From: a bacterium
GTDB taxonomy: Bacteria; Desulfobacterota; JAPLJL01
Direction of reading: 5' to 3'
DNA: 64,000 nucleotides
Assembly (NCBI GenBank): GCA_028713675.1
Contig: JAQTNV010000010.1
Span: 12,369-76,368 of the forward strand
Below, piece by piece: positions 3,954 to 56,797 of the stretch; position 1 is the stretch's first letter, and each line of letters starts with the position of its first letter. The notes under the pieces are model-generated. The model ran no database searches. It was not told the origin of the DNA and was given only the letters and a program-made list of their open reading frames with translations. The translations under genes were made by a program, and so were the position numbers.

Positions 3954-4235
3954 TGGGTCCCTCCCGGGTAAAAGTTAAGCGATTTATTTATCTATATATA
4001 ATGGAGATCTTATATACCGCCGCCTCCGATACTGTCAAGGACAAAAACATAGTATTGGCTATTATCAGTCAAAATCATAATTTATCTGTCGAAGGGCTCA
4101 ATTCAAAACCAAAAAATGACAGGTATTAAATTAATCATCCATTTAAATATCTTTGGCTCTTGTCTTAACCTTTTCTCGCTTTTTAACTTTTCTCGCCATT
4201 TCCTATAATTGACCAAATTCCTCTCGGAATTCATA

Positions 4236-6659
4236 ATGAATCAGATGCCCAAAAAATTACACCGGCTCGCGTTTTTCCTGATTTTCCTCCTGTCCTGTTC
4301 CCGGGACGGGGTCTTGACCTTGACCACTCCCGTCCCCCTGAATGAATCCATCCCCGGGGATGAAATCCGTTTCGGAAAAATCATTTCGGATTCGGAACTG
4401 GTCCCCGGTCCCGGGGCCACCGGCTGGTTCGGTGATTTCAAGCTTTACAATTCCCGGGTCGGTTTCATCCTCCAGGGCAACCTGACCCCCCCCGACCGGC
4501 GCCTGCTTCCCGGAACCATTATCGACGCGGGCTGGGCCGAACCGGGGGCGCTTCCCTCCGGAGATCTTCTCTTCGGCCTTACCCCCTGGCTCGAGGATTC
4601 ACCGGCGCGCGTGGGAAAAATCGAATTCCAGGATGGGGCGGGTCAGGGCCGGGCCACGGTTACCGGAAGGCTGGAACCGCAAAATCTTGATTACCAGGCC
4701 ACTTATGCCCTTTACCCCGGCGATGACCCGCGGGGCCGGGGCCTTCTAATCAAAACCACCATCTCGAACCCCGGCTCTTCCCCCCAGACCGTCAATCCGG
4801 GAGACTGGATTTCGTTCGGGGGAAAACTCGGCCTGCAGGTTCTGGATTTTCCCGGCGGGCACAAACTTCTGGCCGCGATCGGGCCGCGAATATCCTATCT
4901 TTATGTACCTACCGGGCTGGACATCAGCTCCCTGGAAATGACCCCGGGCGGGGCCGGGATCCATTTCCCGGAAACAACCCTGGCCCCCGGGGAATCCTGG
5001 ACCGGCACCCGCTGGCTTCTGATCAGCCGCCATGGGCTTCTGGAAGCGAATCCCATCCTTCCCAACCTCCTCGGTTTCTCCCCGGGAACCCTGCGGGTCC
5101 TGATCCCGAACGTGCAGGCGCAGGAAGATCTTTCCGTGAAAATATTCAGCCCCCCGGATGTTCTGAATGGCATCTGGGCTCCCGACCAGGAGGGAAATCT
5201 TTCGGCCCAGGTTCCGGCCGGTTCCTACCGGGTTAAAATCGAAAGCCCGGGCCTGGAGGATTATTATTTCCCGTCTCCTGTTACCGTCTCCGCCGGCGCC
5301 GAAAAATCGATCACGGTCACGCTCCCGGAGCCTTCCCGGGCGCGGTTCCAGATCTGGGAGGAAAACAACGGCGGCTATGCCACCGGCCCTTCCCCCGCGA
5401 AATTATGTTTCCAGAACCTGCGCCGGCCGGAAATCGTCGTGCGCGCCGTCACCGCGACCGGTTCGGGCGAAACCCTTCTGCCGCCGGGGATTTACGAGGT
5501 TTCCGCGAGCCGGGGGACGGAATACTCCCTGAAGCGGTTCCGATTTGGGCTCCAGCCGGGGGAAACCTTTGCCTTTCACGCTGCCCTCAGGAAGGTTCTG
5601 AATAACGATGGCTACTACTCCTTCGACCCCCGCCAGCGCACCGGCCGCTCCGCCCAGGGCAATCTGGGCCGCGAGGACTGGCTGAAAGACAACCTGGCGG
5701 AGGGCCTTTCCCTCTTGACCCCGGTTGATATCAACGCCGTCACCCAGATCTCTTCCTCCGATTTCCTTCCGGGTTATTCCGCTTCGGCCTCTTCCCTGAC
5801 CGGCCTGGAGATCCTCCCGGAAACCGGGCCTCCGTTTCTGCTCTTCCCCGCCGTTTTCGACCGTCTCTCCGGCTGGGGCGGGGCTCCCCTGGCGGACGAT
5901 CCGGAAACCATCTGGGAGATTTACCCGGCTTACTCCCGGCCCCGTCTCCTGGGGGCCACTCCCGAGTCCCTGGCATACCTGGTTCCTTCCTCCGATCCCG
6001 TCACCGCGCCGGTCCGGTTGGAATTCCCTCTCGATTTCGTCGAGATTTCCGATGCCGCGCCTGACCTCAACCGCTGGTTCGCCCTGCTCAATTCAGGATA
6101 CCTGGTCACCGCCGTCGGCGGATCCGGAGCTGGCAGTGTCGAAGAAGGGATCGGATTCCCCCGGACATTGATCCCCCGGGAAACCGGCTCATCCGATCCG
6201 GAAACCGATCTGGTGAACGCGATCAGGACCCGGAAGGCCCTGGTCTCGGCCGGGCCGCGCCTCCGGATGCGGGCGGATTATTACGGCTTCGATTCCGCCG
6301 CCTTTATTTCCGACACCAGCGGCGATATCGATCTTGAGATCGAGCTGGAAAGCCCGGTCTGGACCCCGGTTTCCGAGCTGATCATCTTCGGCAACGGGCA
6401 GCCCCTGCAAACCATCCCCGTGGATTTTTCCGCCGCTGTCAGCTTGGGAGGCCATCGTTTCTCCCAGCATTACTACCTCAACCTGCCGCTCGCAAAGGAC
6501 ACCTGGTTTGTCGCCCTGGTCCGGGGACAGGATTCGCTCGCGCCCGTTTACCCCGGTCATCCTTTCGCTTTCACCAACCCGATTTGGGTGGACGCTGACG
6601 GGGTGGACCGGGACGGCGACGGGCGTCTTTTCGACGCCCTGAACTCTCCTCTCCCATAG
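4236..6659 (+). CDS. Large hypothetical lipoprotein (about 808 aa) containing carboxypeptidase-regulatory-like beta-sandwich segments
   Basis: Signal peptide with lipobox (MNQMPKKLHRLAFFLIFLLSCS). No recognisable catalytic motif. The ORF track starts at a TTG at 4209. An ATG at 4236 or 4245 is more plausible as the start. Confidence 0.6.
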   Translation: MNQMPKKLHRLAFFLIFLLSCSRDGVLTLTTPVPLNESIPGDEIRFGKIISDSELVPGPGATGWFGDFKLYNSRVGFILQGNLTPPDRRLLPGTIIDAGWAEPGALPSGDLLFGLTPWLEDSPARVGKIEFQDGAGQGRATVTGRLEPQNLDYQATYALYPGDDPRGRGLLIKTTISNPGSSPQTVNPGDWISFGGKLGLQVLDFPGGHKLLAAIGPRISYLYVPTGLDISSLEMTPGGAGIHFPETTLAPGESWTGTRWLLISRHGLLEANPILPNLLGFSPGTLRVLIPNVQAQEDLSVKIFSPPDVLNGIWAPDQEGNLSAQVPAGSYRVKIESPGLEDYYFPSPVTVSAGAEKSITVTLPEPSRARFQIWEENNGGYATGPSPAKLCFQNLRRPEIVVRAVTATGSGETLLPPGIYEVSASRGTEYSLKRFRFGLQPGETFAFHAALRKVLNNDGYYSFDPRQRTGRSAQGNLGREDWLKDNLAEGLSLLTPVDINAVTQISSSDFLPGYSASASSLTGLEILPETGPPFLLFPAVFDRLSGWGGAPLADDPETIWEIYPAYSRPRLLGATPESLAYLVPSSDPVTAPVRLEFPLDFVEISDAAPDLNRWFALLNSGYLVTAVGGSGAGSVEEGIGFPRTLIPRETGSSDPETDLVNAIRTRKALVSAGPRLRMRADYYGFDSAAFISDTSGDIDLEIELESPVWTPVSELIIFGNGQPLQTIPVDFSAAVSLGGHRFSQHYYLNLPLAKDTWFVALVRGQDSLAPVYPGHPFAFTNPIWVDADGVDRDGDGRLFDALNSPLP

Positions 6660-6700
6660 ATCATTCATTCCTCATTTTTGTCATCCCTGTTTCTTTTTTT

Positions 6701-6727
6701 GTCATCCCTGCGAAAGCAGGGATCCAG
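6701..6727. repeat. GAAA-loop hairpin repeat (variant gtcatccctgcgaaagcagggatccag)
   Basis: Preceded by a direct tttgtcatccctg duplication and followed by a G-rich hairpin cluster. Confidence 0.65.
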
Positions 6728-6734
6728 AACAATT

Positions 6735-6865
6735 TTTTCAAGATTCCCGCATCCCTCCCCTCCGGCCTGTAGGCCCTACGGGCTGGAAGCGGGGCAGTAG
6801 GCCCTGCCGGGCCGGAGGCCACATCCTCCCCCTCCCCGCCTTTGACGGAGCAAGCTAAGGGGGAG
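6735..6865. repeat. G/C-rich CCCTCC/GGGAGG nested hairpin cluster; similar clusters lie at 17366-17475, 24345-24455 and 46530-46590
   Basis: The motifs ccctcccctcc ... gggggaggg recur in four intergenic regions. Two of them adjoin GAATGAC-ended elements. Confidence 0.55.
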
Positions 6866-6969
6866 GGAGTAATTAATGCGTTTCTTGCCTCTCTCGCTCT
6901 CTCGCTCTCTCGCTCGTCTCGCCTTTCTATTTGCATCGGTACGATGGACTCTGATATTAGTTGATAATC

Positions 6970-32107: not shown

Positions 32108-32206
32108 ACGGGTCCCGAAAATGATTGTCAATATATGTTAAGATGAAAAAGAGGAAGCATTATGACTGAAGAAAACCAGAAAGATAAAGTAAAAAAGGAG
32201 GGTGGG

Positions 32207-33109
32207 ATGAATTTGTTCCAAAAGAGAATGTTTGGATCTCTTTTAGTTACCCTGGGAGTCGCGGCGCTGGTAATCCTCTCCGCCTGCGCCAAGCCCCCGA
32301 TCAAGGAAATCGCCACCGCCGAAGCGGCCCTGGAAAAGGCGCGCACGGCCGAGGCCCCCACCTACGCCCCGGAAACTTTCAAGAGCGCCGAGGACATCCT
32401 CGCCCAGGCCAAGACCGAGATGCAGAAAAAGAAATACAAACCGGCCAAGAAAGACGCCATCAACGCCCGGCTCCTGGCCGAGCGGGCCCTGGATGAGGCC
32501 GTCAAGAACAAGGCCGCCCAGGAGGCCGTACAGCCCAAAGCCCCCGGTCTGACCGAGGAGGAAAAAGCCGCCGGCCCCACTGTCCAGCCGCAGGAAATCT
32601 CGGTGGCCGAGCTCCAGAAACAGCAGACCGGGACCGGCTCCCTGGATGAAGGAATGAAGATTTCGTCCCTGGAAGCTGTCCATTTCAATTTCGACGATTT
32701 CAGCCTCTCTGAAGAAGCCCGCCAGACCCTGGCCAAGAACGCGGAATGGTTGAAAAAATACAATGTCGTGATCCAGATCGAAGGCCACTGCGACGAGCGC
32801 GGCGCCAACGAATACAACCTCGCCCTGGGCGAGAAAAGGGCCAAGACCGCCCGCGATTACCTGGTGGCTCTCGGCATTGACGCTTCCCGGCTGACGATCA
32901 TCAGTTACGGGGAAGAAATCCCGGTCGACCCCGGCAGCAGCGAAGCCGCCTGGGCCAAGAACCGGCGGGCCGAATTCATTGTCACAAAAATGAACGACAA
33001 GCAGCCGGAGACCGGTGTCAAACAGCCGGAAACCGGCATCAAGCAGCCGGAGGCCGGGATTACACAGCCGGAAACCGGCATTAAGCAGCCGGAAACCGGC
33101 AGCAAGTAG
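32207..33109 (+). CDS. pal: Peptidoglycan-associated lipoprotein Pal (OmpA-like domain) with five C-terminal KQPETGI heptapeptide repeats
   Basis: Lipobox LVILSAC. OmpA-like core (NVVIQIEGHCDERGANEYNLALGEKRAKTARDYL). RBS aaggaggg before the ATG at 32207. Tandem 21-bp repeat at 32995-33100. Confidence 0.85.
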   Translation: MNLFQKRMFGSLLVTLGVAALVILSACAKPPIKEIATAEAALEKARTAEAPTYAPETFKSAEDILAQAKTEMQKKKYKPAKKDAINARLLAERALDEAVKNKAAQEAVQPKAPGLTEEEKAAGPTVQPQEISVAELQKQQTGTGSLDEGMKISSLEAVHFNFDDFSLSEEARQTLAKNAEWLKKYNVVIQIEGHCDERGANEYNLALGEKRAKTARDYLVALGIDASRLTIISYGEEIPVDPGSSEAAWAKNRRAEFIVTKMNDKQPETGVKQPETGIKQPEAGITQPETGIKQPETGSK

Positions 33110-33115
33110 AAAGAA

Positions 33116-33152
33116 ACCAGTTTCTAGTTTCGAGTTTCGGGTTTCGAGTTTG
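33116..33152 (+). repeat. Stop-codon-adjacent GTTTCGA-heptamer element (3' of pal)
   Basis: The sequence ccagtttctagtttcgagtttcgggtttcgagtttg begins 7 nt after the pal TAG. Confidence 0.65.
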
Positions 33153-33271
33153 AAATTCTCGGAATTTTTTACGGAATGTCATTTCTGCGAACATGTCCGA
33201 CGACCTGTCCTCCGAAGCCTTGGCGTAGGAGGGAGCCTTGGCGAAGTCGGAAGCAGGAATCCAGGGGTTTT

Positions 33272-34126
33272 ATGAAGATTTCTTTTCGCTTTCTTCTTTT
33301 CACTCTTTGCTCCCTGCTCCCTGCCCTTTGTCTATTCCCCGGCTGTCTGCTCCTGACCAGTAACGACGGCATCGTCATCTCCGCCCGGCTGGATACCCTC
33401 GAGTCCAAGGTCAACCGGCTGGACCAGGACCTGCCCCGGCTCAAGGCCCAGAGCGAAGCCAACCAGAAGGAGCTCGAGCGGCTCACCCGCCAGCAGGCCG
33501 ACCTGCTGAACCAGATCGAGCAGATCAAGCAGACCATCCTCTCCCTCGGGGGAAAATTCGAGGAAGGGGAATCCCTGTTTGCCCGGCTGAAAACCCTGGA
33601 AGGGGAAGTCCAGGAACAGGCCGCCCAGGTCAAGCTGCATGCCGACCGGGCCCGGGAGCAGAACGACCGCCTGGCCAAGTTGGAAGGGATCATTTCCCCG
33701 GGCGGGCAGGTAGACGCCCAGAAACTGACCCCGAAATGGGCCAACGAGGAAGCCGGCTACCGGGAAGCCTACTCGAATTATCAGGGGAAAAAATACGATC
33801 TGGCCCGGGCCAAGTTTGAAAAGCTCATCGAGCTTTACCCCGGAGGCCAGTTCTCCGAAAGCGCCCGTTATTGGATCGGGGAATGTTACTTCAACCTCAA
33901 GGATTACGAGCGGGCTCTACTGAGTTTCAACGAAGTGATCGAGAAGTATCCGAAAAGCGACAAGGTCCCCGGCGCTTATCTGAAACTGGGGCTTTCCTTC
34001 CTCGAGCTTGGCCAGCAGAAGGAAGCCCAGATGGCCTTCGAAACCCTGCTTTCCAAGTTTCCCAAATCCGACGCCGCCAAAACCGCCAAGGAAAAGCTGA
34101 AAAAAATGAGGAAGAAGGGAAAGTGA
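33272..34126 (+). CDS. cpoB: Tol-Pal system protein CpoB/YbgF (coiled coil plus TPR)
   Basis: Signal peptide MKISFRFLLFTLCSLLPALC, a long coiled-coil region, and a C-terminal TPR (YWIGECYFNLKDYERALLSFNEVIEKYPKSDKVPGAYLKLG). Confidence 0.8.
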   Translation: MKISFRFLLFTLCSLLPALCLFPGCLLLTSNDGIVISARLDTLESKVNRLDQDLPRLKAQSEANQKELERLTRQQADLLNQIEQIKQTILSLGGKFEEGESLFARLKTLEGEVQEQAAQVKLHADRAREQNDRLAKLEGIISPGGQVDAQKLTPKWANEEAGYREAYSNYQGKKYDLARAKFEKLIELYPGGQFSESARYWIGECYFNLKDYERALLSFNEVIEKYPKSDKVPGAYLKLGLSFLELGQQKEAQMAFETLLSKFPKSDAAKTAKEKLKKMRKKGK

Positions 34127-34138
34127 TCAACTGTTTAA

Positions 34139-34309
34139 GGTAGGTGGTAGGTAGCAGGTGGTAGGTGGTAGGTGGTAGGTGGTAGGTGGTAGGTGGTAGG
34201 TGATAGGTGGTAGGTAGTAGGTAGTAGGTAGTAGGTAGTAGGTAGTAGGTAGTAGGTAGTAGGTAGTAGGTAGTAGGTAGTAGGTAGTAGGTAGTAGGTA
34301 GTAGGTAGT
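34139..34309. repeat. Long tandem heptanucleotide array (GGTAGGT / AGTAGGT, about 24 units)
   Basis: About 170 bp of perfect 7-nt periodicity immediately after cpoB, bordering the AT-rich islet. Confidence 0.9.
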
Positions 34310-34356
34310 AGACCCCCGGAAACCGATTTAACTCTTTTTTAAAATTCCATTTAAAT

Positions 34357-34842
34357 TTAATGACCCAGTGAAAATCCTAATATTTTGCCATTAGTACGAT
34401 CTATAAATACAAAACCATTAAACGCACCTGGAATAGGAGGAAATACTTTTAATTGAAAATAAATTGCCCAATAATTCTTCCCTCCTAAATGCATTTCTTG
34501 AATATTTGGTGAAAGCCAAATCCTTGGATTTCTATATACTTCGTCGTTCCATCTAGTATTATTGTCATCTGCTTTTATTCCAACTGTTTCTTTACCCCAA
34601 GATGGATCGTTTGTCTTTTTTATCAAACCAGCTCTAGCAATTTTTATCGCTTCCGACAAAGTGATGTTCGTTGTTTTCCCGGAAGGATAAGAAAATTCTA
34701 TCGATTTTATAGGAGAAGGATTCTTCTCCGCCTTTGAAGCTTCAGGAGTATGACTGGGAGAGCAATTCAAACATACCAGGAAGGTACAAACAACCCATAG
34801 TGAACAAACAACTCGCATAGAGGTATTATAAATCATTTTCAA
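34357..34842 (-). CDS. Hypothetical small secreted protein encoded in an AT-rich islet
   Basis: The ORF lies entirely in a roughly 530-bp segment of markedly lower GC (visually about 35-40%) than its surroundings. N-terminal hydrophobic Cys-rich signal (VVCSLWVVCTFLVCLNCS). Confidence 0.5.
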   Translation of the reverse strand: MKMIYNTSMRVVCSLWVVCTFLVCLNCSPSHTPEASKAEKNPSPIKSIEFSYPSGKTTNITLSEAIKIARAGLIKKTNDPSWGKETVGIKADDNNTRWNDEVYRNPRIWLSPNIQEMHLGGKNYWAIYFQLKVFPPIPGAFNGFVFIDRTNGKILGFSLGH

Positions 34843-34920
34843 CTTGATAATTCCTCGCGGCTGCGGGGTTGCCTTATTCCGTCATTCCGGGCTTGACTAA
34901 GCCTGCCCCGGACCTGATCC

Positions 34921-34971
34921 GGGGGAATCCAGTATTTTTTCCGCCTGGATTCCTGCTTCCGCAGGAATGAC
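34921..34971. repeat. GAAA-loop hairpin repeat, extended form
   Basis: The sequence gggggaatccagtattttttccgcctggattcctgcttccgcaggaatgac flanks the AT-rich islet. Confidence 0.7.
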
Positions 34972-35043
34972 AACAGACAAAATAAAGGTTTAATAAATTA
35001 GATACCCCGCGGCTTTCCACGGGAAGATTAATTCGGATGTGGA

Positions 35044-36489
35044 CTATTTTCCCAGGCGGGATTTGAGGAGCTCGCCCACCCGCTTGGGGTTGGCCTTGCC
35101 TTTGCTTTTCTTCATTACCTGACCGGTTAGAAACTGAAGAAGTTTCTCCTCACCGGATTTGAAGCGTTCCACTTCCTTGGGGCTATCCTTGATTACTTCG
35201 TCAATGATTCCGATCAGGGCCGACTCGTCCGAAACCTGGGACAGGCCCTGCTCCTGAACGATTTTCTCCGGGTCCTGGCCGTTCTTATACGACTCCTCGA
35301 GCACCTTTTTTCCGACCAGCCCGGAAATTTTCCCCTCATCCACCATCTTGATGATCCGCGCCAGGTTTTGCGGGGTCATCTTGACCGGGCCTCCGCCCTC
35401 CGCCCAGTAAATTCTTAAAAATTCTCCGGTCACCCAGTTGCTCACCTTCTTGGGCTCCGGATGGATTTTGACGGTTTCGTCAAAAAAATCGGAGACGGGC
35501 TTGGCGGCCACCAGGACCTCGGCGTCATATCGGGTCAGGCCCAGGTCCCGGACGAAGCGGTCCGCTTTTTCCTGGGGAAGCTCAGGTATTTTCTTTTTCA
35601 GCTCTTCCACCCAGGAATTTTCCAGAACCAGGGGCAGAAGGTCGGGCTCGGGAAAATAGCGGTAGTCATGGGCCTCTTCCTTGCCCCGCATCGGCAGGGT
35701 GACCTCATTATCGGGATCCCAGAGCAGGGTTTCCTGAACCACCTTTTTCCCCTCCGAGACGAGCGCGATCTGCCTTTGGATCTCCTTGGCCAGGGCTTTC
35801 TCCACGTTTTTGAAGGAGTTCATGTTCTTGAGCTCGGTCTTGACCCCCAGGGCGGTTTCGCCGCGGCGGCGGACGGAAACGTTAGCGTCGCAGCGAAGGG
35901 ACCCCTCCTCCATTTTCCCGTCGCAAACCCCCAGGTAAACCAGGATCGCGGCCAGGCGGCGGAGATAATCCCCGGCCTCCTCCGGAGTCCGGAGATCCGG
36001 TTCCGAAACGATCTCCATCAGAGGCACCCCGGCACGGTTCAGGTCCACGAAGCTCGATCCGGAATCCGCGCCTTCCCCGTGCACGAGCTTCCCGGCATCC
36101 TCCTCCAGATGGACCCGGGTGATCCCGATCTTCCGGAGCCCGTTCCCGCCCGCGGGGATCTCGAGCGAGCCCCGGAGCGCCAGGGGTGACTCATACTGGG
36201 AGATCTGGTAGCCCTTGGGCAGGTCCGGGTAGAAATAATTCTTCCGGGCGAAGACCGAGCGGGGAGGGATTTCCTCGCAATGCAGGGCCAGGGAGGTCAT
36301 GATCGCGAATTCCACCACCTTCCGGTTGATTACCGGCAGGACCCCGGGCATCCCCAGGCAGACCGGGCAGGTATGGCTGTTCGGCTGGTCCCCGAACCGG
36401 GTCGAGCAGCCGCAGAAGATCTTGGACTGGGTCTGGAGCTGGGCGTGGACCTCGAGGCCGATTACTGATTCAAAAGCTTTATCATTCAT
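35044..36489 (-). CDS. gatB: Asp-tRNA(Asn)/Glu-tRNA(Gln) amidotransferase subunit B
   Basis: Motif [19 protein letters not shown]...[13 protein letters not shown]-terminal YqeY-like tail. Confidence 0.9.
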
Positions 36490-36645
36490 AGTTCAAAGTC
36501 CAAAGGTCAAAGGTCAAAGTTCGAAGGAAAGATATAAAACAGCATCAGCAAGCTGATGCGCTCCAAAAAAGAAAACCCTGAATTCCGGCTTCCTCCTGCG
36601 CCGAGGCTTCGGAGGACAAGTCCGCCGGAATGACGATATTTATTT

Positions 36646-36680
36646 TTTACTGCTTACTGCCTACTCCTTACTGTTTACTG
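36646..36680. repeat. Tandem heptamer array (TTACTGC / CTACTCC units)
   Basis: Sequence ttactgcttactgcctactccttactgtttactgg. Confidence 0.7.
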
Positions 36681-36716
36681 GGAGCGAAGCTCCCTGCTGC
36701 CTACTTCTTACTGACA

Positions 36717-36741
36717 GCGCAGCCTAAAGGCTGCGGCTACC
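36717..36741 (-). repeat. REP palindrome with compensatory stem changes
   Basis: The sequence gcgcagcctaaaggctgcggctacc has the same architecture and CTACC end as the other copies. The stem is GCAGCCT/AGGCTGC rather than CAGGCT/AGCCTG. Confidence 0.6.
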
Positions 36742-36763
36742 TTAGAATGACAAATAAATATAT

Positions 36764-36806
36764 TTCAATCGTCAATCGTAAATCGTCAATCGTCAATCGT
36801 CAATTT
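36764..36806. repeat. Tandem heptamer array (AATCGTC units); a second copy lies at 36891-36922
   Basis: The sequence caatcgtcaatcgtaaatcgtcaatcgtcaatcgtcaatt is repeated about 85 bp downstream. Confidence 0.7.
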
Positions 36807-36920
36807 GCGCCTTGCGCTCTGCTTTTCGCAAGGCTAAAGCCTTGCCCTACATTTGCCCTATGCCCTTTGCGATCACAAATCAGGTTTTCACTCGTCAATC
36901 GTAAATCGTCAATCGTCAAT

Positions 36921-37856
36921 TTATTTTATGACTCCTTTGAGGATGGGGGCGAGTGTCTTTTTCAGCCGAGCAGGGATGGCTTTCGGGTCGGTGACAATGG
37001 CGTCCTTCAAGGCCTGGCTGCAGACGCAATTCCTCGCTTCCGGCAAATGGGGGATCGCGCCCGCGATCATTTCCTTGGCCTTGCCGATGGTGGCCTTCAT
37101 TACCTTGATCACATCCTCGATCTCGACCTCGCCTTCCCGCTCGTTCCAGCAGTCGTAGTCGGTGACCATCGCCACCGTGGCGTAGCAGATCTCGGCCTCG
37201 CGGGCGAGGCGGGCTTCCGGGAGGTTGGTCATCCCGATCACCGAAACCCCCCACTGGCGGTAGATGTCGGACTCCGCCCGGGTGGAAAACTGCGGCCCCT
37301 CGATGCAGATGTAGGTCCCCTGCCGGTGCAGCCGGAAGCCCTTTTCCTCGCCGACCCGGGCCAGGATCCCGGCCATGACCGGGCAGACCGGGTGGGCCAG
37401 GGCCACGTGCGCGACGATCTCTCGGGAGAAAAAGGTGCGGGGCCGGGCGGCGGTCCGGTCGAAGAACTGGTCGGGCAGAACGATATCGCCGGGATGGATC
37501 TCCTCGCGCATGCTCCCCACCGCGCTGACCGAGAAGATGCGCTCGGTGCCGAGCAGCTTGAAGCCGAAGATGTTGGCGCGGAAATTGATATCCCCGGGCG
37601 GGATCCGGTGGCCGCGGCCGTGGCGGGCCAGGAAGGCCAGGCGCCGGCCGCCCATCCGGCCGATCACGAACGGGTCGGAGGGTTCCCCGAAGGGGGTCTT
37701 GACCCTGACCTCCCGGATGTCGGTAAGTCCGGGCATCTCGTAAAGCCCCACCCCCCCGATCACCCCGATGGTCCCGGCCTCAAAAATTTTATTGCTTTTT
37801 TTACCAACCGAAATGTGGGGTTTCTTTTTCTTGCGTTTCATTCGTTTCCCCTTCAT
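36921..37856 (-). CDS. mtnP: S-methyl-5'-thioadenosine phosphorylase (purine nucleoside phosphorylase family)
   Basis: TIGVIGGVGLYE near the N-terminus, plus PNP-family motifs. The basic N-terminal extension of the ORF (MKGKRMKRKKKK...) is probably not translated, so the start is uncertain. Confidence 0.8.
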   Translation of the reverse strand: MKGKRMKRKKKKPHISVGKKSNKIFEAGTIGVIGGVGLYEMPGLTDIREVRVKTPFGEPSDPFVIGRMGGRRLAFLARHGRGHRIPPGDINFRANIFGFKLLGTERIFSVSAVGSMREEIHPGDIVLPDQFFDRTAARPRTFFSREIVAHVALAHPVCPVMAGILARVGEEKGFRLHRQGTYICIEGPQFSTRAESDIYRQWGVSVIGMTNLPEARLAREAEICYATVAMVTDYDCWNEREGEVEIEDVIKVMKATIGKAKEMIAGAIPHLPEARNCVCSQALKDAIVTDPKAIPARLKKTLAPILKGVIK

Positions 37857-37909
37857 TTAATCGAGATTGCTTCGTCGCTTGCGCTTCTCGCAATGACAAT
37901 TCTTCCAGA

Positions 37910-37980
37910 CTGGATTCCCGCTTTCGCGGGAATGACGGAATTAGCATGGATACTCCCGCCTTGGGCGGTACGGGAATGAC
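37910..37980. repeat. GAAA-loop hairpin repeat (ctggattcccgctttcgcgggaatgacgg) followed by a second gggaatgac end
   Basis: Lies between mtnP and ndk. Generates the spurious peptide WIPAFAGMT at the C-terminus of shadow ORF 36630..37979. Confidence 0.65.
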
Positions 37981-49886: not shown

Positions 49887-49943
49887 GGTAGCCGCAGGCT
49901 TTTCGATCAGATCCCGAGGCATTGTGATCGAGGGAAGCCTGCG
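49887..49943 (+). repeat. Long-loop REP variant, copy 2 of 3 (between the porin-like gene and mdh)
   Basis: Near-identical to 53719-53775. Confidence 0.75.
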
Positions 49944-49966
49944 TTTCTCCGCATCTCCATCCGAAT

Positions 49967-53718: not shown

Positions 53719-53775
53719 GGTAGCCGCAGGCTTTTCGATCAGATCCCGAGGTATTGTGGCCGAGGGAAGCCTGCG
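53719..53775 (+). repeat. Long-loop REP variant, copy 3 of 3 (3' flank of the RAYT)
   Basis: Sequence ggtagccgcaggcttttcgatcagatcccgaggtattgtggccgagggaagcctgcg. Confidence 0.75.
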
Positions 53776-53782
53776 TACATTT

Positions 53783-54253
53783 TCACCATTCTTCCAAATT
53801 ATAAACGGTCGATCCCTTAAAAGGATACCCCTTACTATCCGCCGCCAAACCCTTTCGAACAGGATTATTTAAGATGTATTTTACCTGCTTGAGAATATCT
53901 TCATCTTTTCTTAGGACATGATCATAAAAATCTTTTTGCCATTTAATGCCGGGATGATTTCGCCCCAACCAGTAACCGGTTTTTTGCTTGAAGTTTTTGA
54001 TAAATTTTAATAGATCAGATTCATCGGACTTACCCTCCACTAAAACATGAAAATGATCCGGCATAAAAAGAAAAACATGGGCTTCGCATTCTTCTTTCTT
54101 TAAAATATTGATTAACAGGTCAGAGAAAATCCGAGTAATATTTTCCTGAGCAAATAGAGGATACCTCTCTGCAATACAAACCGTAAAAGTAATTATTATT
54201 TTTCCTCGATATAACTTCGTTGATAAACGGTGTCTGCGTTCTCGGATTTCCAT
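53783..54253 (-). CDS. REP-associated tyrosine transposase (RAYT; IS200/IS605-like Y1 HuH transposase)
   Basis: 156 aa. HuH motif FMPDHFHVLV. Catalytic Tyr / NP motif KYILNNPVRKGL. N-terminal YRGKIIITFTV. Flanked on both sides by GTAG-type REP palindromes. Confidence 0.8.
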   Translation of the reverse strand: MEIRERRHRLSTKLYRGKIIITFTVCIAERYPLFAQENITRIFSDLLINILKKEECEAHVFLFMPDHFHVLVEGKSDESDLLKFIKNFKQKTGYWLGRNHPGIKWQKDFYDHVLRKDEDILKQVKYILNNPVRKGLAADSKGYPFKGSTVYNLEEW

Positions 54254-54261
54254 TCAAAACC

Positions 54262-54512
54262 CGCAACCTGCCTGTCCTGAGCTTGTCGAAGGGAAGGTTG
54301 CGCCTACCAAACATTCAAAATCTTATTCTTGTATCGGTAGCCACAGGCTTCAGCCTGCGCAATTCCGCAACCTAAAGGTTGCGCCTACCAAACATTCAAA
54401 ATCTTATTCTTGTATCGGTAGCCGCATGCTTCAGCCTGCGCTATTCCGCAACCTAAAGGTTGCGCCTACCAGAATGTAATTATTTTTACGCAGGCTAAAG
54501 CCTGCAGCTACC
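54262..54512. repeat. BIME-like cluster of six REPs in alternating orientation, including an approximately 84-bp direct duplication
   Basis: REPs at 54262-54308 (-, long loop), 54336-54360 (+), 54365-54389 (-, stem GCAACCT/AGGTTGC), 54417-54441 (+), 54446-54470 (-) and 54488-54512 (-). Each has a GGTAG or CTACC terminus. Confidence 0.75.
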
Positions 54513-54535: not shown

Positions 54536-56797
54536 CTATTGATGCATTGCATAATACGCCTGCCCCAGCGAGATCCCCCCATCGTTGGCCGGGACCAGGC
54601 GGTTGATGTAAATCGAAAAACCCGATCCTTCCAGAAGCTCGAAAACCCGGCCCAACAGGAAGTGGTTCTGGAACACCCCCCCGCTCAAAATCAGACTTGA
54701 GTGCCCGGTCCGATCCCGCATCCAGCCCGCCACCCGGGCAATCACCCGGGCCACCGAATTATGAAAGCGGGCGGAGATCACGGATTTATCCGTTCCTTTC
54801 CGGATTTCCTCCACCACCGCCTGGATGACGGGATCCGGATCAATGTTCAAAATCCCTTTGATCTCATCTAAACCGAAAAGATATTCCCCGGGTTCACCCC
54901 GCCGGGCCGCCTGCTCGAGTTCGATGGCCGCCTGGCCTTCATACCTCGCCGCGCCCCGCACCCCGAGCAGGGCGCTGACCGCGTCAAAAAGCCGGCCCGC
55001 GCTCGAGCAGGGCGGGGAATTGATTCCCCGCCTGACCGCCGCCTTCAGGACCGACCATTTCTCCAGATCGAGTTCCCGGACGAAGGGAATATCCAGCCCG
55101 GCCAGCTTTTCCCCGGCTATCCGGTCCAGGTACACGGCCGCCATCCGCCATGGCTCCCTGATCCCCTGCTCCCCTCCCGGCAGCGGGATATAACGGATGT
55201 GCGCGAGCCGCCGGTAGCCCTGCAGAGACACCTCCAGGAACTCTCCGCCCCAGATCGTGCCGTCGTCCCCGTAACCGGTCCCGTCCATCGTCACCGCCAG
55301 CGCCGGACCGGCCAGCCCGTGCTCGGCCATCACGGAGAGCGCGTGGGCATAATGATGCTGGACGCCGACACGGGGTAAAGGGATTTCCCGGGCGTGCCGG
55401 GTGGAGAGATAATCCGGATGCAGGTCGTAGGCGACCAGCCCGGGCTCGATCTCGAAAAAGCGCCGGAAATGCGCGATCCCCTCCTGGAATGATTTCAGGG
55501 TCTCAAAATTCTCCAGGTCCCCGATGTGATGGCTGACGAAGGCCGAACTCCCCTTGGTCAGGCAGAAGGTGTTTTTCAGCTCGGCCCCTAGGGCCAGGAC
55601 GCTTTTTCCGCCCCGCGCGAGGGGAATCGGGGCGGGAACGTAACCCCTCGCCCTTCGTAGGAAAACGGTCCCCCCCCGGAAGGGCTTGATCACGGAATCG
55701 TCGCAGCGGGTGTGGATCTCGCGGTTATGAAAGAGGAAATAATCGGCGATCTCCGCGAGCCGTTTCCGGGCTTCCTCGTCCCGGTAGGCGATCGGCTCAT
55801 CGCTCATGTTCCCGCTGGTCATCACCAGGCAGTCGAGTTCCCCGTCGAAAAGCAGGCGGTGAAGCGGGGTATACGGCAGCATCATCCCCAGGGTGTTTTG
55901 AAAAGGGGCAACAGAAGAGGCGACCCGGGCCCCGGTTTTCATGGGCAGAACCACGATCGGGGCTTCCCGGGATTCCAGCAGTTTCTCCGCCTCCCCGTCC
56001 GCCTCGCAGAGTTCCCGGATGACCCCCAGGTCGCGGGCCATCAGGGCAAAGGGCTTGTCCTCCCGGTATTTCCGGCTCCGGAGCCGGCTGACGGCTTCCT
56101 CGTTCCGGGCCGAAACCGCGAGGTGAAACCCTCCCATCCCCTTGACCGCCACGACCACCCCATTTTTCAAAAGCTTCCGTGTCTCCCCGGCCGGGTCCGG
56201 CCCGGCGATTTCCCGTCCGGCCGGGTCCAGAAGCCGGAGGCCGGGGCCGCAATCCGGGCAGGCATTGGGCTCGGCATGGAAACGGCGGTTTCCCGGGTCG
56301 CGGTATTCCTTTTCGCAGGCCGAGCACATTTTAAAAATCGCCATCGTGGTTTTTTCCCGATCGTAGGGTACGTCCCGGATGATCGTGAAACGCGGCCCGC
56401 AGTTGGTGCAGTTGATAAAAGGATAATGAACGCGGCGGTCCTTCTGATCAGAAAACTCCCGGAGGCAATCCCCGCAAATTGCGATGTCGGGCGGGACGAG
56501 AGCTGATCTCTCCCCGCCCCGTTCGCTTTCCCGGATTTCAAAGCTTTTATCACCAACCGGGGGCAGGTCATGGGTGAGGATATTTTCAATTCGGGCCTGG
56601 GGCGGGCTCGCTTTGAGACTGGAAAGAAAACCCTGGATAATGTCCTTCTCCCCCTCAACCTCAATCTGTACACCCTTCTCATCATTTAAAACCCATCCGG
56701 AGAGGCCGTGTTTTCGGGCGAGGTTATAAACAAAGGGGCGGAATCCCACCCCCTGGACTATTCCCTCGACCAGAATATGAACACGGGATTTAGTCAT
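54536..56797 (-). CDS. hypF: Carbamoyltransferase HypF (acylphosphatase, Zn-fingers, YrdC and Kae1-like domains)
   Basis: 753 aa. Acylphosphatase N-terminus (VHILVEGIVQGVGFRPFVY). Two CxxC...CxxC Zn-finger pairs. YrdC/Kae1 segments. Confidence 0.9.
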   Translation of the reverse strand: MTKSRVHILVEGIVQGVGFRPFVYNLARKHGLSGWVLNDEKGVQIEVEGEKDIIQGFLSSLKASPPQARIENILTHDLPPVGDKSFEIRESERGGERSALVPPDIAICGDCLREFSDQKDRRVHYPFINCTNCGPRFTIIRDVPYDREKTTMAIFKMCSACEKEYRDPGNRRFHAEPNACPDCGPGLRLLDPAGREIAGPDPAGETRKLLKNGVVVAVKGMGGFHLAVSARNEEAVSRLRSRKYREDKPFALMARDLGVIRELCEADGEAEKLLESREAPIVVLPMKTGARVASSVAPFQNTLGMMLPYTPLHRLLFDGELDCLVMTSGNMSDEPIAYRDEEARKRLAEIADYFLFHNREIHTRCDDSVIKPFRGGTVFLRRARGYVPAPIPLARGGKSVLALGAELKNTFCLTKGSSAFVSHHIGDLENFETLKSFQEGIAHFRRFFEIEPGLVAYDLHPDYLSTRHAREIPLPRVGVQHHYAHALSVMAEHGLAGPALAVTMDGTGYGDDGTIWGGEFLEVSLQGYRRLAHIRYIPLPGGEQGIREPWRMAAVYLDRIAGEKLAGLDIPFVRELDLEKWSVLKAAVRRGINSPPCSSAGRLFDAVSALLGVRGAARYEGQAAIELEQAARRGEPGEYLFGLDEIKGILNIDPDPVIQAVVEEIRKGTDKSVISARFHNSVARVIARVAGWMRDRTGHSSLILSGGVFQNHFLLGRVFELLEGSGFSIYINRLVPANDGGISLGQAYYAMHQ

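What the first reader, a model, noticed from the sequence alone, without database searches (positions are those of the whole stretch)
34139..34975. AT-rich islet encoding a small secreted protein, bracketed by a 170-bp heptamer array and a GAAA-hairpin repeat
Roughly 34325-34860 has a base composition clearly lower in GC than the surrounding DNA. It encodes only ORF 34357..34842 (161 aa), which carries a hydrophobic Cys-rich signal and nothing else recognisable. On one side is a perfect tandem array of about 24 GGTAGGT/AGTAGGT units (34139-34309). On the other is the 51-nt extended hairpin repeat (34921-34971). Compositional deviation combined with flanking repeats is the classic signature of horizontally acquired or mobile cargo, here inserted between the tol-pal cluster and gatB.
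Basis: seen in the sequence. Interest (0 to 1): 0.6.

Follow-up and report, generated by a model that had tools for sequence, protein, structure and literature searches.

The report
Acquired orphan toxin-immunity-like lipoprotein gene
The AT-rich patch between cpoB and gatB is one small foreign gene that probably encodes a periplasmic lipoprotein shielding the cell from a rival's Rhs-type toxin; the repeats on either side are ordinary genome-wide spacer repeats, not the ends of a mobile element.

Summary
The heptamer array (34140-34311, 24.6 units), the AT-rich stretch and the 161-aa ORF (34357-34842, minus strand) are real. The islet is the lowest-GC spot in the window, and the ORF has the lowest GC3 of 48 long ORFs (0.25 against a mean of 0.70).

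- **Acquisition is supported.** Relatives with 87-91% identical CpoB have cpoB and gatB 27 nt apart, or separated by 500-600 nt of other repeats, with no ORF. Other family members sit in 32-48% GC contigs.
- **One relative, L088, carries a homologue at the same site.** Shared DNA is confined to about 34320-34852, so it excludes both repeats.
- **The repeats are not element ends.** Both belong to families scattered across this lineage's spacers.
- **The protein is recognisable.** It belongs to a rare family (45 representatives among 1.84 billion) with a confident PepSY/cystatin/NTF2-like fold and fringe similarity to Pfam Imm-NTF2-2.
- **Family members sit beside toxins.** Two lie directly after DUF4329 (Tox-JAB-2) toxin tips, one of them on an Rhs protein. 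A third lies in an Rhs cassette array.

No such toxin is in the window, so this is most likely an orphan immunity gene. That function is inferred, not shown. It is a new member of a known kind, of modest interest.

The parts
33176..34126 (+). cpoB/ybgF-like gene, the last gene of the tol-pal cluster and the left flank. It is not part of the islet.
   Evidence: TPR_6 7.9e-24, YfiO, and a sub-threshold TolA_bind_tri match at 4.4e-5. Relatives are 87-94% identical.
34140..34311 (.). Heptamer microsatellite: about 9 GGTAGGT units then about 14 AGTAGGT units. It is an expanded copy of the lineage-wide intergenic heptamer arrays and belongs to the cpoB 3' flank, not to the acquired DNA.
   Evidence: TRF gives 24.6 copies at 95%. 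Twelve other period-7 arrays of 3.4-7.3 copies are in the window, and about 2 per 10 kb in relatives. A GGTAGC seed is present after cpoB in L002. The array is not shared with L088.
34320..34852 (-). Core of the acquired AT-rich DNA, the only stretch homologous between the two carriers (window and L088). It comprises the gene, about 10 nt upstream and about 35 nt downstream.
   Evidence: Sliding identity to L088 rises at about 34852 and falls away at about 34320. GC is 0.32-0.41.
34357..34842 (-). 161-aa ORF encoding an Imm-NTF2-2-like, PepSY-fold predicted lipoprotein. The start is uncertain. TTG at 34842 has GAGGA 9 nt upstream. ATG at 34836 is the start shared with L088. ATG at 34818 is also possible.
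   Evidence: 45 homologues; pLDDT 83.9. The frame is kept in L088 with in-frame indels only, and dN/dS is 0.47.
34762..34842 (-). Signal-peptide region, residues 1-27: a basic n-region, a hydrophobic core, and Cys27 in the position of the lipobox cysteine.
   Evidence: Hydropathy peak 2.3. Cys27 is invariant in alignment A3 and aligns with the ISGC/AGC/GGC lipoboxes of relatives. This region is 91-93% identical to L088 at the DNA level.
34360..34680 (-). Folded domain, residues 55-161: a helix followed by a beta-sheet, with a helical insert. It carries the family motifs ADDNNTRW, YWAIYF and FVFIDRTNGKILG. This is the fast-diverging part.
34878..34971 (.). Compound REP-like hairpin element (core 34945-34971). 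It is one of 6 dispersed copies. It lies upstream of the ORF, between the ORF and the gatB terminator.
   Evidence: The fold is -50.2 kcal/mol, z -4.4.
35000..35033 (.). GC-rich hairpin that terminates gatB. It is the ancestral intergenic element shared with relatives that lack the ORF.
   Evidence: Terminator-like site 35024-35005 on the minus strand. It is 81% identical over 36 nt to the L002 and L089 spacers.
35044..36489 (-). gatB, the right flank, convergent with cpoB. It is not part of the islet.
   Evidence: GatB_N 2.8e-119 and GatB_Yqey 6.9e-46. Relatives are 87-92.5% identical.

Best explanation
An AT-rich segment of about 530 nt (roughly 34320-34852) is foreign DNA carrying a single gene. 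It sits between the convergent housekeeping genes cpoB and gatB in part of this lineage.

The gene encodes a small exported protein, probably lipid-anchored at Cys27. Its 100-residue PepSY/cystatin/NTF2-like domain belongs to a rare family on the fringe of Pfam Imm-NTF2-2. That is the predicted immunity partner of Tox-JAB-2 (DUF4329) toxin tips carried by Rhs and other polymorphic toxins.

No such toxin gene is nearby. The protein is therefore most likely an orphan immunity protein that binds and blocks a JAB-fold toxin domain delivered by competitors. Its toxin-binding domain diverges fast, while its export leader is conserved.

The heptamer array and the hairpin element are separate. They are lineage-wide spacer repeats that happen to flank the gene.

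Shown: foreign composition, patchy presence at one site, a real coding gene, the fold, and toxin adjacency of relatives. Inferred: export and lipidation, toxin binding, and the protective role.
For: Foreign and dispensable:
- GC3 is 0.25 against a mean of 0.70, and the islet holds the lowest 300-nt GC window.
- The ORF is absent from L092 (27-nt spacer) and from L002, L089, L090 and L091.
- Family genes elsewhere match their 32-48% GC contigs.

A real gene:
- L088 has a homologue at the same site with only in-frame indels. Overall dN/dS is 0.47.
- An exhaustive search found 45 homologues with shared motifs.
- The AlphaFold2 model has mean pLDDT 83.9.

Immunity-like:
- 19 of 30 members hit PF15631, always through the same C-terminal hairpin. 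P0040 passes the cut-off at 30.6 bits against 26.
- P0052 lies 105 nt downstream of a 1239-aa Rhs protein with a DUF4329 tip.
- P0046 abuts an ORF that ends with the same DUF4329 C-terminal motif.
- P0048 lies in the cassette array downstream of an Rhs/YD-shell toxin.
- Zhang et al. 2012 pair Tox-JAB-2 (DUF4329) with Imm-NTF2-2 (PMC3482391). I reproduced that pair in E. coli K-12 RhsB and YhhH.

No toxin nearby: no DUF4329 in the window.

Fast-evolving domain: dS is 0.97 and dN 0.41 in the domain, against dS 0.12 in the leader and dS 0.42 in cpoB.
Against: - The window protein itself gives no PF15631 hit.
- It has lost the family's GGD motif.
- Profile-profile comparison with the E. coli YhhH family is not significant.
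- The Tox-JAB-2/Imm-NTF2-2 pairing is a computational prediction, and I found no experimental work on it.
- The lipobox is non-canonical (CLNC).
- Tox-JAB-2 has been guessed to be a nuclease, which would call for a cytoplasmic immunity protein rather than an exported one.
- Some family members are C-terminal modules of larger secreted proteins, so the domain may be a general binding module.
- Only 64 kb of the genome was seen, so a cognate toxin elsewhere is not excluded.
- No promoter-like site was found on the ORF's strand.
Confidence: 0.58

Rival explanations
1. It is an acquired PepSY-type periplasmic lipoprotein whose job has nothing to do with toxin immunity. Examples would be a protease inhibitor or regulator, or an envelope accessory that works with Tol-Pal.
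Against: Three independent contexts link the family to Rhs or DUF4329 toxins. Four times as many members hit Imm-NTF2-2 as hit PepSY. Closely related genomes keep tol-pal without the gene, so it is not a Tol-Pal component.
Confidence: 0.2
2. One reading: the heptamer array and the hairpin repeat are the two ends of a mobile unit that carried the gene in.
For: Repeats lie on both sides of a compositionally foreign gene. The window also contains an IS200/RAYT-like transposase that could mobilise REP-type hairpins.
Against: The two repeats share no sequence or symmetry. Both families are scattered through other spacers. Neither is shared with the second carrier, L088, whose gene is flanked by different repeats. 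A seed of the array follows cpoB in relatives that lack the ORF. No recombinase is adjacent.
Confidence: 0.05
3. The gene is native and ancestral to the lineage and was lost in most relatives. Its AT-richness reflects selection or local mutation bias, not transfer.
For: Window and L088 share the site and orientation. GC3 stays at 0.25-0.28 in both despite a dS of about 0.7-1.0 between them, with no sign of drift towards the host's composition.
Against: GC3 lies 3.5 sd below the host's genes. Homologues elsewhere sit in low-GC contigs. The two carriers are not an exclusive pair by cpoB: L088 is closer to the ORF-less L089 and L090 than to the window. The minimal 27-nt spacer in L092 looks like an unoccupied site.
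Confidence: 0.1
4. It is a decaying or silent remnant: once an immunity gene, now without function.
For: The GGD motif is lost. dN/dS is 0.47, about three times that of cpoB. No consensus promoter was detected on its strand.
Against: The frame is intact across two lineages at 68% DNA identity, with only in-frame indels. The invariant W98, W125 and F146 are kept. The model is confident.
Confidence: 0.07

Closest known systems
Imm-NTF2-2 (Pfam PF15631; E. coli YhhH/YbbC family), the predicted immunity partner of Tox-JAB-2/DUF4329 Rhs toxin tips (Zhang et al. 2012, PMC3482391)
   Same: - Both are small alpha+beta proteins ending in a ...GG..[VF]FI[ED]....G.[IL].....G. hairpin.
- Relatives of the window protein lie directly after DUF4329 toxin tips, as YhhH does after RhsB.
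- YhhH also has a hydrophobic N-terminus with a Cys.
- One family member passes the Pfam cut-off.
   Different: - The window protein does not hit the model.
- Comparison with the YhhH profile is not significant.
- The family has a helical insert with an ADDNNTxW motif that YhhH lacks.
- The gene here stands alone, with no toxin.
- The host is an uncultured 58% GC lineage, not an enterobacterium.
Orphan immunity genes and acquired interbacterial defence clusters (from my own knowledge: Ross et al. 2019, Bacteroidales)
   Same: An immunity-type gene without its toxin, patchy among close relatives, and of foreign composition.
   Different: It is a single gene rather than a multi-gene array on a mobile element. 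No recombinase is adjacent. Protection has not been tested.
Periplasmic lipoprotein immunity proteins of type VI effectors (e.g. Tgi2, PDB 4kt3 chain B) and colicin M immunity protein (PDB 2xgl)
   Different: There is no sequence similarity. The fold match is weaker than to PepSY. Their toxins attack the cell wall, whereas the partner here would be a JAB-fold domain.
PepSY domains (PF03413), the inhibitory propeptides of M4 peptidases, and YpeB
   Different: No member reaches the PepSY cut-off. The family has an extra helical insert. No peptidase gene is adjacent.
STRR heptanucleotide tandem repeats of heterocystous cyanobacteria (from my own knowledge: Mazel et al. 1990). This comparison is for the array only.
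   Same: Both are tandem 7-nt units, of many different sequences, confined to intergenic spacers and present many times per genome.
   Different: The lineage and the unit sequences differ. This array is 3-4 times longer than the others in the window. No function is known for either.

Membership tests
Imm-NTF2-2 (PF15631) | Score at or above the Pfam gathering cut-off (26 bits) | tested here: not met
   The window protein has no PF15631 hit at E <= 1. Among relatives, 19 of 30 hit below the cut-off at 14-21 bits. P0040 passes at 30.6 bits, and P0040 matches the window protein at E 1.3e-4 library-wide. The link is therefore transitive only.
Imm-NTF2-2 (PF15631) | Gene immediately downstream of a Tox-JAB-2/DUF4329 toxin tip | tested here: not met
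   No DUF4329 in the 64-kb window. The feature is met by relatives P0052 (Rhs-DUF4329, 105 nt upstream) and P0046. The canonical pair was confirmed in E. coli K-12.
Imm-NTF2-2 (PF15631) | Profile-level homology to the founding E. coli YhhH/YbbC proteins | tested here: inconclusive
   hhalign gives E 0.09-0.11 and aligns only the C-terminal hairpin. The YhhH profile is very shallow (Neff about 2).
Imm-NTF2-2 (PF15631) | NTF2-like alpha+beta fold | tested here: inconclusive
PepSY (PF03413) | HMM score at or above the cut-off (24 bits) | tested here: not met
   The window protein has no hit. The best relative scores 22.3 bits.
Bacterial lipoprotein | Signal peptide ending in a lipobox [LVI][ASTVI][GAS]C | tested here: inconclusive
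   The n-region and hydrophobic core are present. Cys27 aligns with the canonical ISGC/AGC/GGC lipoboxes of relatives and is invariant in A3. The local sequence is CLNC, which does not fit the consensus. No SignalP or LipoP was available.
Transposable element, MITE, integron cassette or genomic island | Matched terminal repeats or target-site duplication, and/or an adjacent recombinase | tested here: not met
   No inverted or direct repeat pair brackets the islet. The flanking repeats differ in L088. No recombinase ORF lies in 33-36.5 kb.
Horizontally acquired DNA | Atypical composition plus absence from the same site in close relatives | tested here: met
Orphan immunity gene / acquired interbacterial defence | Confers resistance to a toxin the host does not make | not testable with these tools
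   This needs a toxicity-rescue or competition experiment, and the complete genome to exclude a cognate toxin.

The most novel reading that the evidence does not exclude
The family, including the founding E. coli YhhH, carries export or lipoprotein leaders. This would mean that Tox-JAB-2/DUF4329 toxins, so far guessed to be cytoplasmic nucleases, act in the periplasm as JAB-type peptidases and are blocked there by a PepSY-like, propeptide-style inhibitor. The cpoB-gatB spacer of this uncultured lineage would then be a recombination hot spot where divergent immunity alleles from low-GC donors are swapped in behind a conserved leader.
Probability: 0.15. Interest if true: 0.6.

Novelty: new member of a known kind. 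Interest (0 to 1): 0.35.

Why it matters
This gives a name and a testable function to a gene that public annotation calls hypothetical. It also defines a rare, un-annotated branch of toxin-immunity proteins found only in metagenomes.

It extends the predicted Tox-JAB-2/Imm-NTF2-2 pairing well beyond E. coli. The exported nature of the immunity partner raises a testable question about where that toxin acts.

For genome scanning, the case is a useful caution. Repeats beside a foreign gene are not evidence of a mobile element when the same repeats fill most spacers of the genome.

Tried and rejected
- **Word-indexed protein search of the ORF:** it found only the ORF itself. The exhaustive search was needed.
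- **NCBIfam:** no hit.
- **Single-sequence AlphaFold2:** pLDDT 48, unusable.
- **Foldseek against PDB:** nothing significant. The afdb50 library was unavailable.
- **PDB sequence searches:** nothing for the family profile or for the DUF4329 tip.
- **Rfam on 33-36 kb:** only noise.
- **Exact-sequence look-up of the window protein's contig:** not on record.
- **Metagenome scans with the family:** the first alignment was too diverse. The second scan found no confirmed relative.
- **hhalign against E. coli YhhH, single sequence and profile:** not significant.
- **Literature:** no experimental work on Imm-NTF2-2, YhhH or Tox-JAB-2 was found.
- **Rejected: spurious ORF.** The frame is conserved and homologues exist.
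- **Rejected: repeat-bounded mobile element.** See the rival explanations.
- **Rejected: Tol-Pal accessory.** The gene is absent in close relatives that keep tol-pal.
- **Rejected: the weak Pfam 'Fimbrial' hit** (E 0.038), treated as chance.

Full report
**1. What is in the sequence**

cpoB (33176-34126, + strand; TPR, YfiO and a sub-threshold TolA_bind_tri match) ends the tolB-pal-cpoB cluster. gatB (35044-36489, - strand) converges on it. The 917-nt spacer between them holds five things.

- A heptamer array at 34140-34311. TRF gives 24.6 copies, 95% matches and no indels. A GGTAGGT block is followed by an AGTAGGT block.
- An AT-rich stretch.
- One ORF, 34357-34842 on the minus strand, 161 aa.
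- A compound hairpin element, about 34878-34971.
- A GC-rich hairpin that terminates gatB, at 35005-35024.

The AT-rich stretch contains the lowest-GC 300-nt window of the 64 kb (0.323 against mean 0.582, sd 0.069, z -3.7). The ORF's GC3 of 0.25 is the lowest of 48 long ORFs (mean 0.70, sd 0.125). 'Perfect' is slightly generous for the array.

**2. The flanking repeats are genome-wide furniture**

TRF finds 13 period-7 arrays in the window, with many different units and 3.4-7.3 copies apart from this one. The density, about 2 per 10 kb, is the same in related contigs. Some arrays sit at conserved positions, for example upstream of gatB.

The hairpin core GGATTCCYGCYTYCGCRGGAATGAC occurs 6 times in the window, against 0 in shuffles. 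The two repeats share no sequence or symmetry.

**3. Relatives**

Scans with CpoB found close relatives at 87-94% amino-acid identity.

| Contig(s) | Between cpoB and gatB | ORF homologue |
|---|---|---|
| L092 | 27 nt | no |
| L002, L089, L090, L091 | 500-600 nt of other miniature repeats | no |
| L088 (1.7 kb JGI contig) | contig starts in the hairpin repeat, so gatB is not seen | yes, 56% identical over the aligned codons (52-53% by BLAST) |

L088 was reached through the closest protein homologue, P0002. It shows hairpin-repeat fragment, ORF homologue, other repeats, then cpoB, in the same order and orientation as the window. The gene-caller's start for P0002 is wrong. The shared ATG gives MIYNTSMRGICSLWVVCAFLVCVNCSP.

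DNA homology between the window and L088 is confined to about 34320-34852. It excludes the array and nearly all of the hairpin element.

The gatB terminator hairpin (35000-35033) is shared with the ORF-less spacers. A GGTAGC-type seed follows the cpoB stop in L002 as well. The ancestral spacer was therefore short: a heptamer seed plus a terminator hairpin. The gene was added between them in some lineages.

By cpoB DNA, L088 is closer to the ORF-less L089 and L090 (90.6%) than to the window (88.0%). L089 and L090 are 99.5% identical in cpoB but only 84% in gatB. Presence of the gene is therefore patchy, and the spacer looks like a recombination junction.

**4. The ORF is a real gene, and it evolves fast**

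Between the window and L088 the frame is kept, with only in-frame indels. DNA identity is 68%, dN 0.34, dS 0.73 and dN/dS 0.47. For neighbouring cpoB the values are dN 0.06, dS 0.42 and dN/dS 0.15.

Divergence is graded along the gene.

| Region | DNA identity to L088 | dS | dN |
|---|---|---|---|
| Leader (first 26 codons) | 91-93% | 0.12 | 0.07 |
| Linker | 73-82% | n/a | n/a |
| Folded domain | 45-65% | n/a | n/a |
| Everything after the leader (linker plus domain) | n/a | 0.97 | 0.41 |

A conserved leader with a strongly diverged binding domain fits either rapid diversification or partial allele replacement. I cannot tell the two apart with only two alleles. GC3 stays at 0.25-0.28 in both.

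**5. What the protein is**

The word-indexed search found only the query itself, annotated as a hypothetical protein from a MAG. The exhaustive HMMER search of 1.84 billion representatives found 45 proteins at E <= 1e-3.

Most of these are 95-150 aa. Many carry clear lipoprotein leaders (…ISGC, …AGC, …GGC). A few are larger proteins that carry the domain at their C-terminus. The shared motifs are L.EAIEIGK.EL, ADDxNTxW, YWAIY[FY].PK and GGDA.VFID..GKVIG.LLGE. W98, W125 and F146 are invariant. The window protein keeps these but has lost GGD.

- cystatins
- VirB8/NTF2-like proteins

Foldseek found nothing significant.

In Pfam, 19 of 30 members match Imm-NTF2-2 (PF15631). The match always pairs profile positions about 29-66 with the C-terminal hairpin. 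Most score 14-21 bits, below the 26-bit cut-off. P0040 passes at 30.6 bits. Five members give weak PepSY hits. The window protein gives neither.

**6. Genomic company of the family**

- **L085:** P0052 lies 105 nt downstream of a 1239-aa Rhs protein whose tip is DUF4329 (7e-26).
- **L086:** P0046 abuts an ORF ending ADNNNVDAYLVTPSGQMKRYDH. This is the same motif as the end of the L085 DUF4329 tip, ADNNDVDGYVETPSGAIKRYDH.
- **L081 and L082:** P0048 lies in a string of small cassettes about 3 kb downstream of an Rhs/YD-shell toxin.
- **L083:** the same gene sits beside an IS3-type integrase fragment.
- **L084 and L087:** uninformative.

Zhang et al. 2012 equate DUF4329 with Tox-JAB-2 (a JAB fold with E, H[ST]H, S and D residues). 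They name Imm-NTF2-2 as its immunity protein, known then only from E. coli (PMC3482391). I confirmed that founding pair in K-12. The RhsB tip scores 136 bits for DUF4329, and the overlapping downstream gene yhhH scores 92 bits for PF15631.

Two independent lines, weak sequence similarity and toxin adjacency, thus point to the same toxin-immunity pairing. Direct profile comparison with the shallow YhhH alignment is not significant. I therefore call the family Imm-NTF2-2-like rather than a proven member.

**7. Origin**

Family genes elsewhere have the composition of their contigs (32-48% GC). In the window and L088 the gene is 35% GC inside 55-58% GC DNA. This fits transfer from a low-GC donor pool. 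The window holds no DUF4329.

**8. Most likely mechanism**

Inferred steps:

- The protein is exported, and probably lipid-anchored at Cys27.
- Its PepSY-like domain binds an incoming JAB-fold toxin tip delivered by competitors and blocks it.
- This gives protection without the cell carrying the toxin.

Shown steps are the foreign composition, patchy occupancy of one site, the coding constraint, the fold, and the toxin adjacency of relatives.

Caveats:

- The lipobox is non-canonical.
- The GGD motif is lost.
- No promoter consensus was found on the ORF's strand.
- Only 64 kb of the genome was seen.
- The toxin-immunity pairing itself has never been tested experimentally, as far as I could find.

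**9. Verdict**

The 'bracketed by repeats, hence mobile' logic is not, and the protein is recognisable. This is a new, divergent member of a known kind, an orphan polymorphic-toxin immunity gene, and of modest interest.

The more interesting loose end is that this family, like E. coli YhhH, looks exported. That sits badly with the usual guess that Tox-JAB-2 is a cytoplasmic nuclease.

Noticed in passing
window 1578, 9330, 9815, 13934, 14047, 33119, 36485, 36647, 36765, 36888, 37993, 48891 (array starts); also L002, L089, L090, L092: Tandem heptamer arrays of many different unit sequences, 3.4-7.3 copies each, fill intergenic spacers at about 2 per 10 kb in this genome and its relatives. Some sit at conserved positions, such as upstream of gatB. 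This resembles cyanobacterial STRR repeats. Their function is unknown.
   Followed up: partly
window 53783-54253 (-), with repeats at 53719-53776, 49887-49944 and 54294-54471: A second AT-rich small ORF (GC3 0.34) is an IS200/RAYT-like Y1 transposase (Pfam Y1_Tnp, 8.7e-11), inserted just downstream of a large gene on the same strand (54536-56797). On one side is an 81-nt hairpin-containing tandem repeat (2.2 copies). On the other is a 58-nt repeat that recurs 3.8 kb away at 95% identity. This is probably a REP/RAYT system.
   Followed up: partly
window 26, 6701(-), 9919(-), 27562, 34947, 37912: A dispersed 25-28-nt hairpin core (GGATTCCYGCYTYCGCRGGAATGAC) appears in 6 copies. Three copies also carry an upstream GGGGGAATCCAG...CTGGATTCC arm. 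It translates into the spurious 'IPAFAGMT'-type peptides seen in long false ORFs such as 36630-37979 (+).
   Followed up: partly
window 32998-33106 (3' end of the pal-like gene, 32162-33109): The OmpA-family Pal-like protein ends in about 5 tandem copies of a 21-nt unit, a 7-residue repeat (KQPETGI). A 7-nt array follows directly at 33119-33151.
   Followed up: no
L089 versus L090 (cpoB 4001-4834; gatB about 5340-6880): The two contigs are 99.5% identical in cpoB but only 84% in gatB. A recombination breakpoint therefore lies in or near the cpoB-gatB spacer, which seems to be a junction of mosaic ancestry in this population.
   Followed up: partly
window 34850-34862 and 35002-35014: A 13-nt imperfect direct repeat (ATTCCTCGCGGCT / ATACCCCGCGGCT, 11 of 13) flanks the compound hairpin element. 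It might be a target duplication from insertion of that element into the terminator hairpin, but it could be chance.
   Followed up: no
L169 4900-5283 (E. coli K-12 yhhH) and alignment A5: The founding Imm-NTF2-2 protein YhhH has a hydrophobic N-terminal segment ending ...NTWAQC. That looks like an export or lipoprotein leader, which is unexpected if its partner toxin (RhsB DUF4329 tip) were a cytoplasmic nuclease.
   Followed up: no
L082 51-2909, 2961-3269, 5497-5805: An Rhs/YD-shell toxin with a short hydrophobic C-terminal tip is followed by a 102-aa membrane protein. That protein is duplicated 2.5 kb downstream, with other small orphan cassettes in between. This is a typical Rhs orphan toxin/immunity array in a low-GC metagenomic contig.
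   Followed up: partly
L001 (1900 nt) and L093 (3343 nt): Two related contigs break inside cpoB, before the spacer. At 172 nt the array in the window is longer than a short read. Assemblies of this region may therefore be fragile, and the array's copy number uncertain.
   Followed up: no
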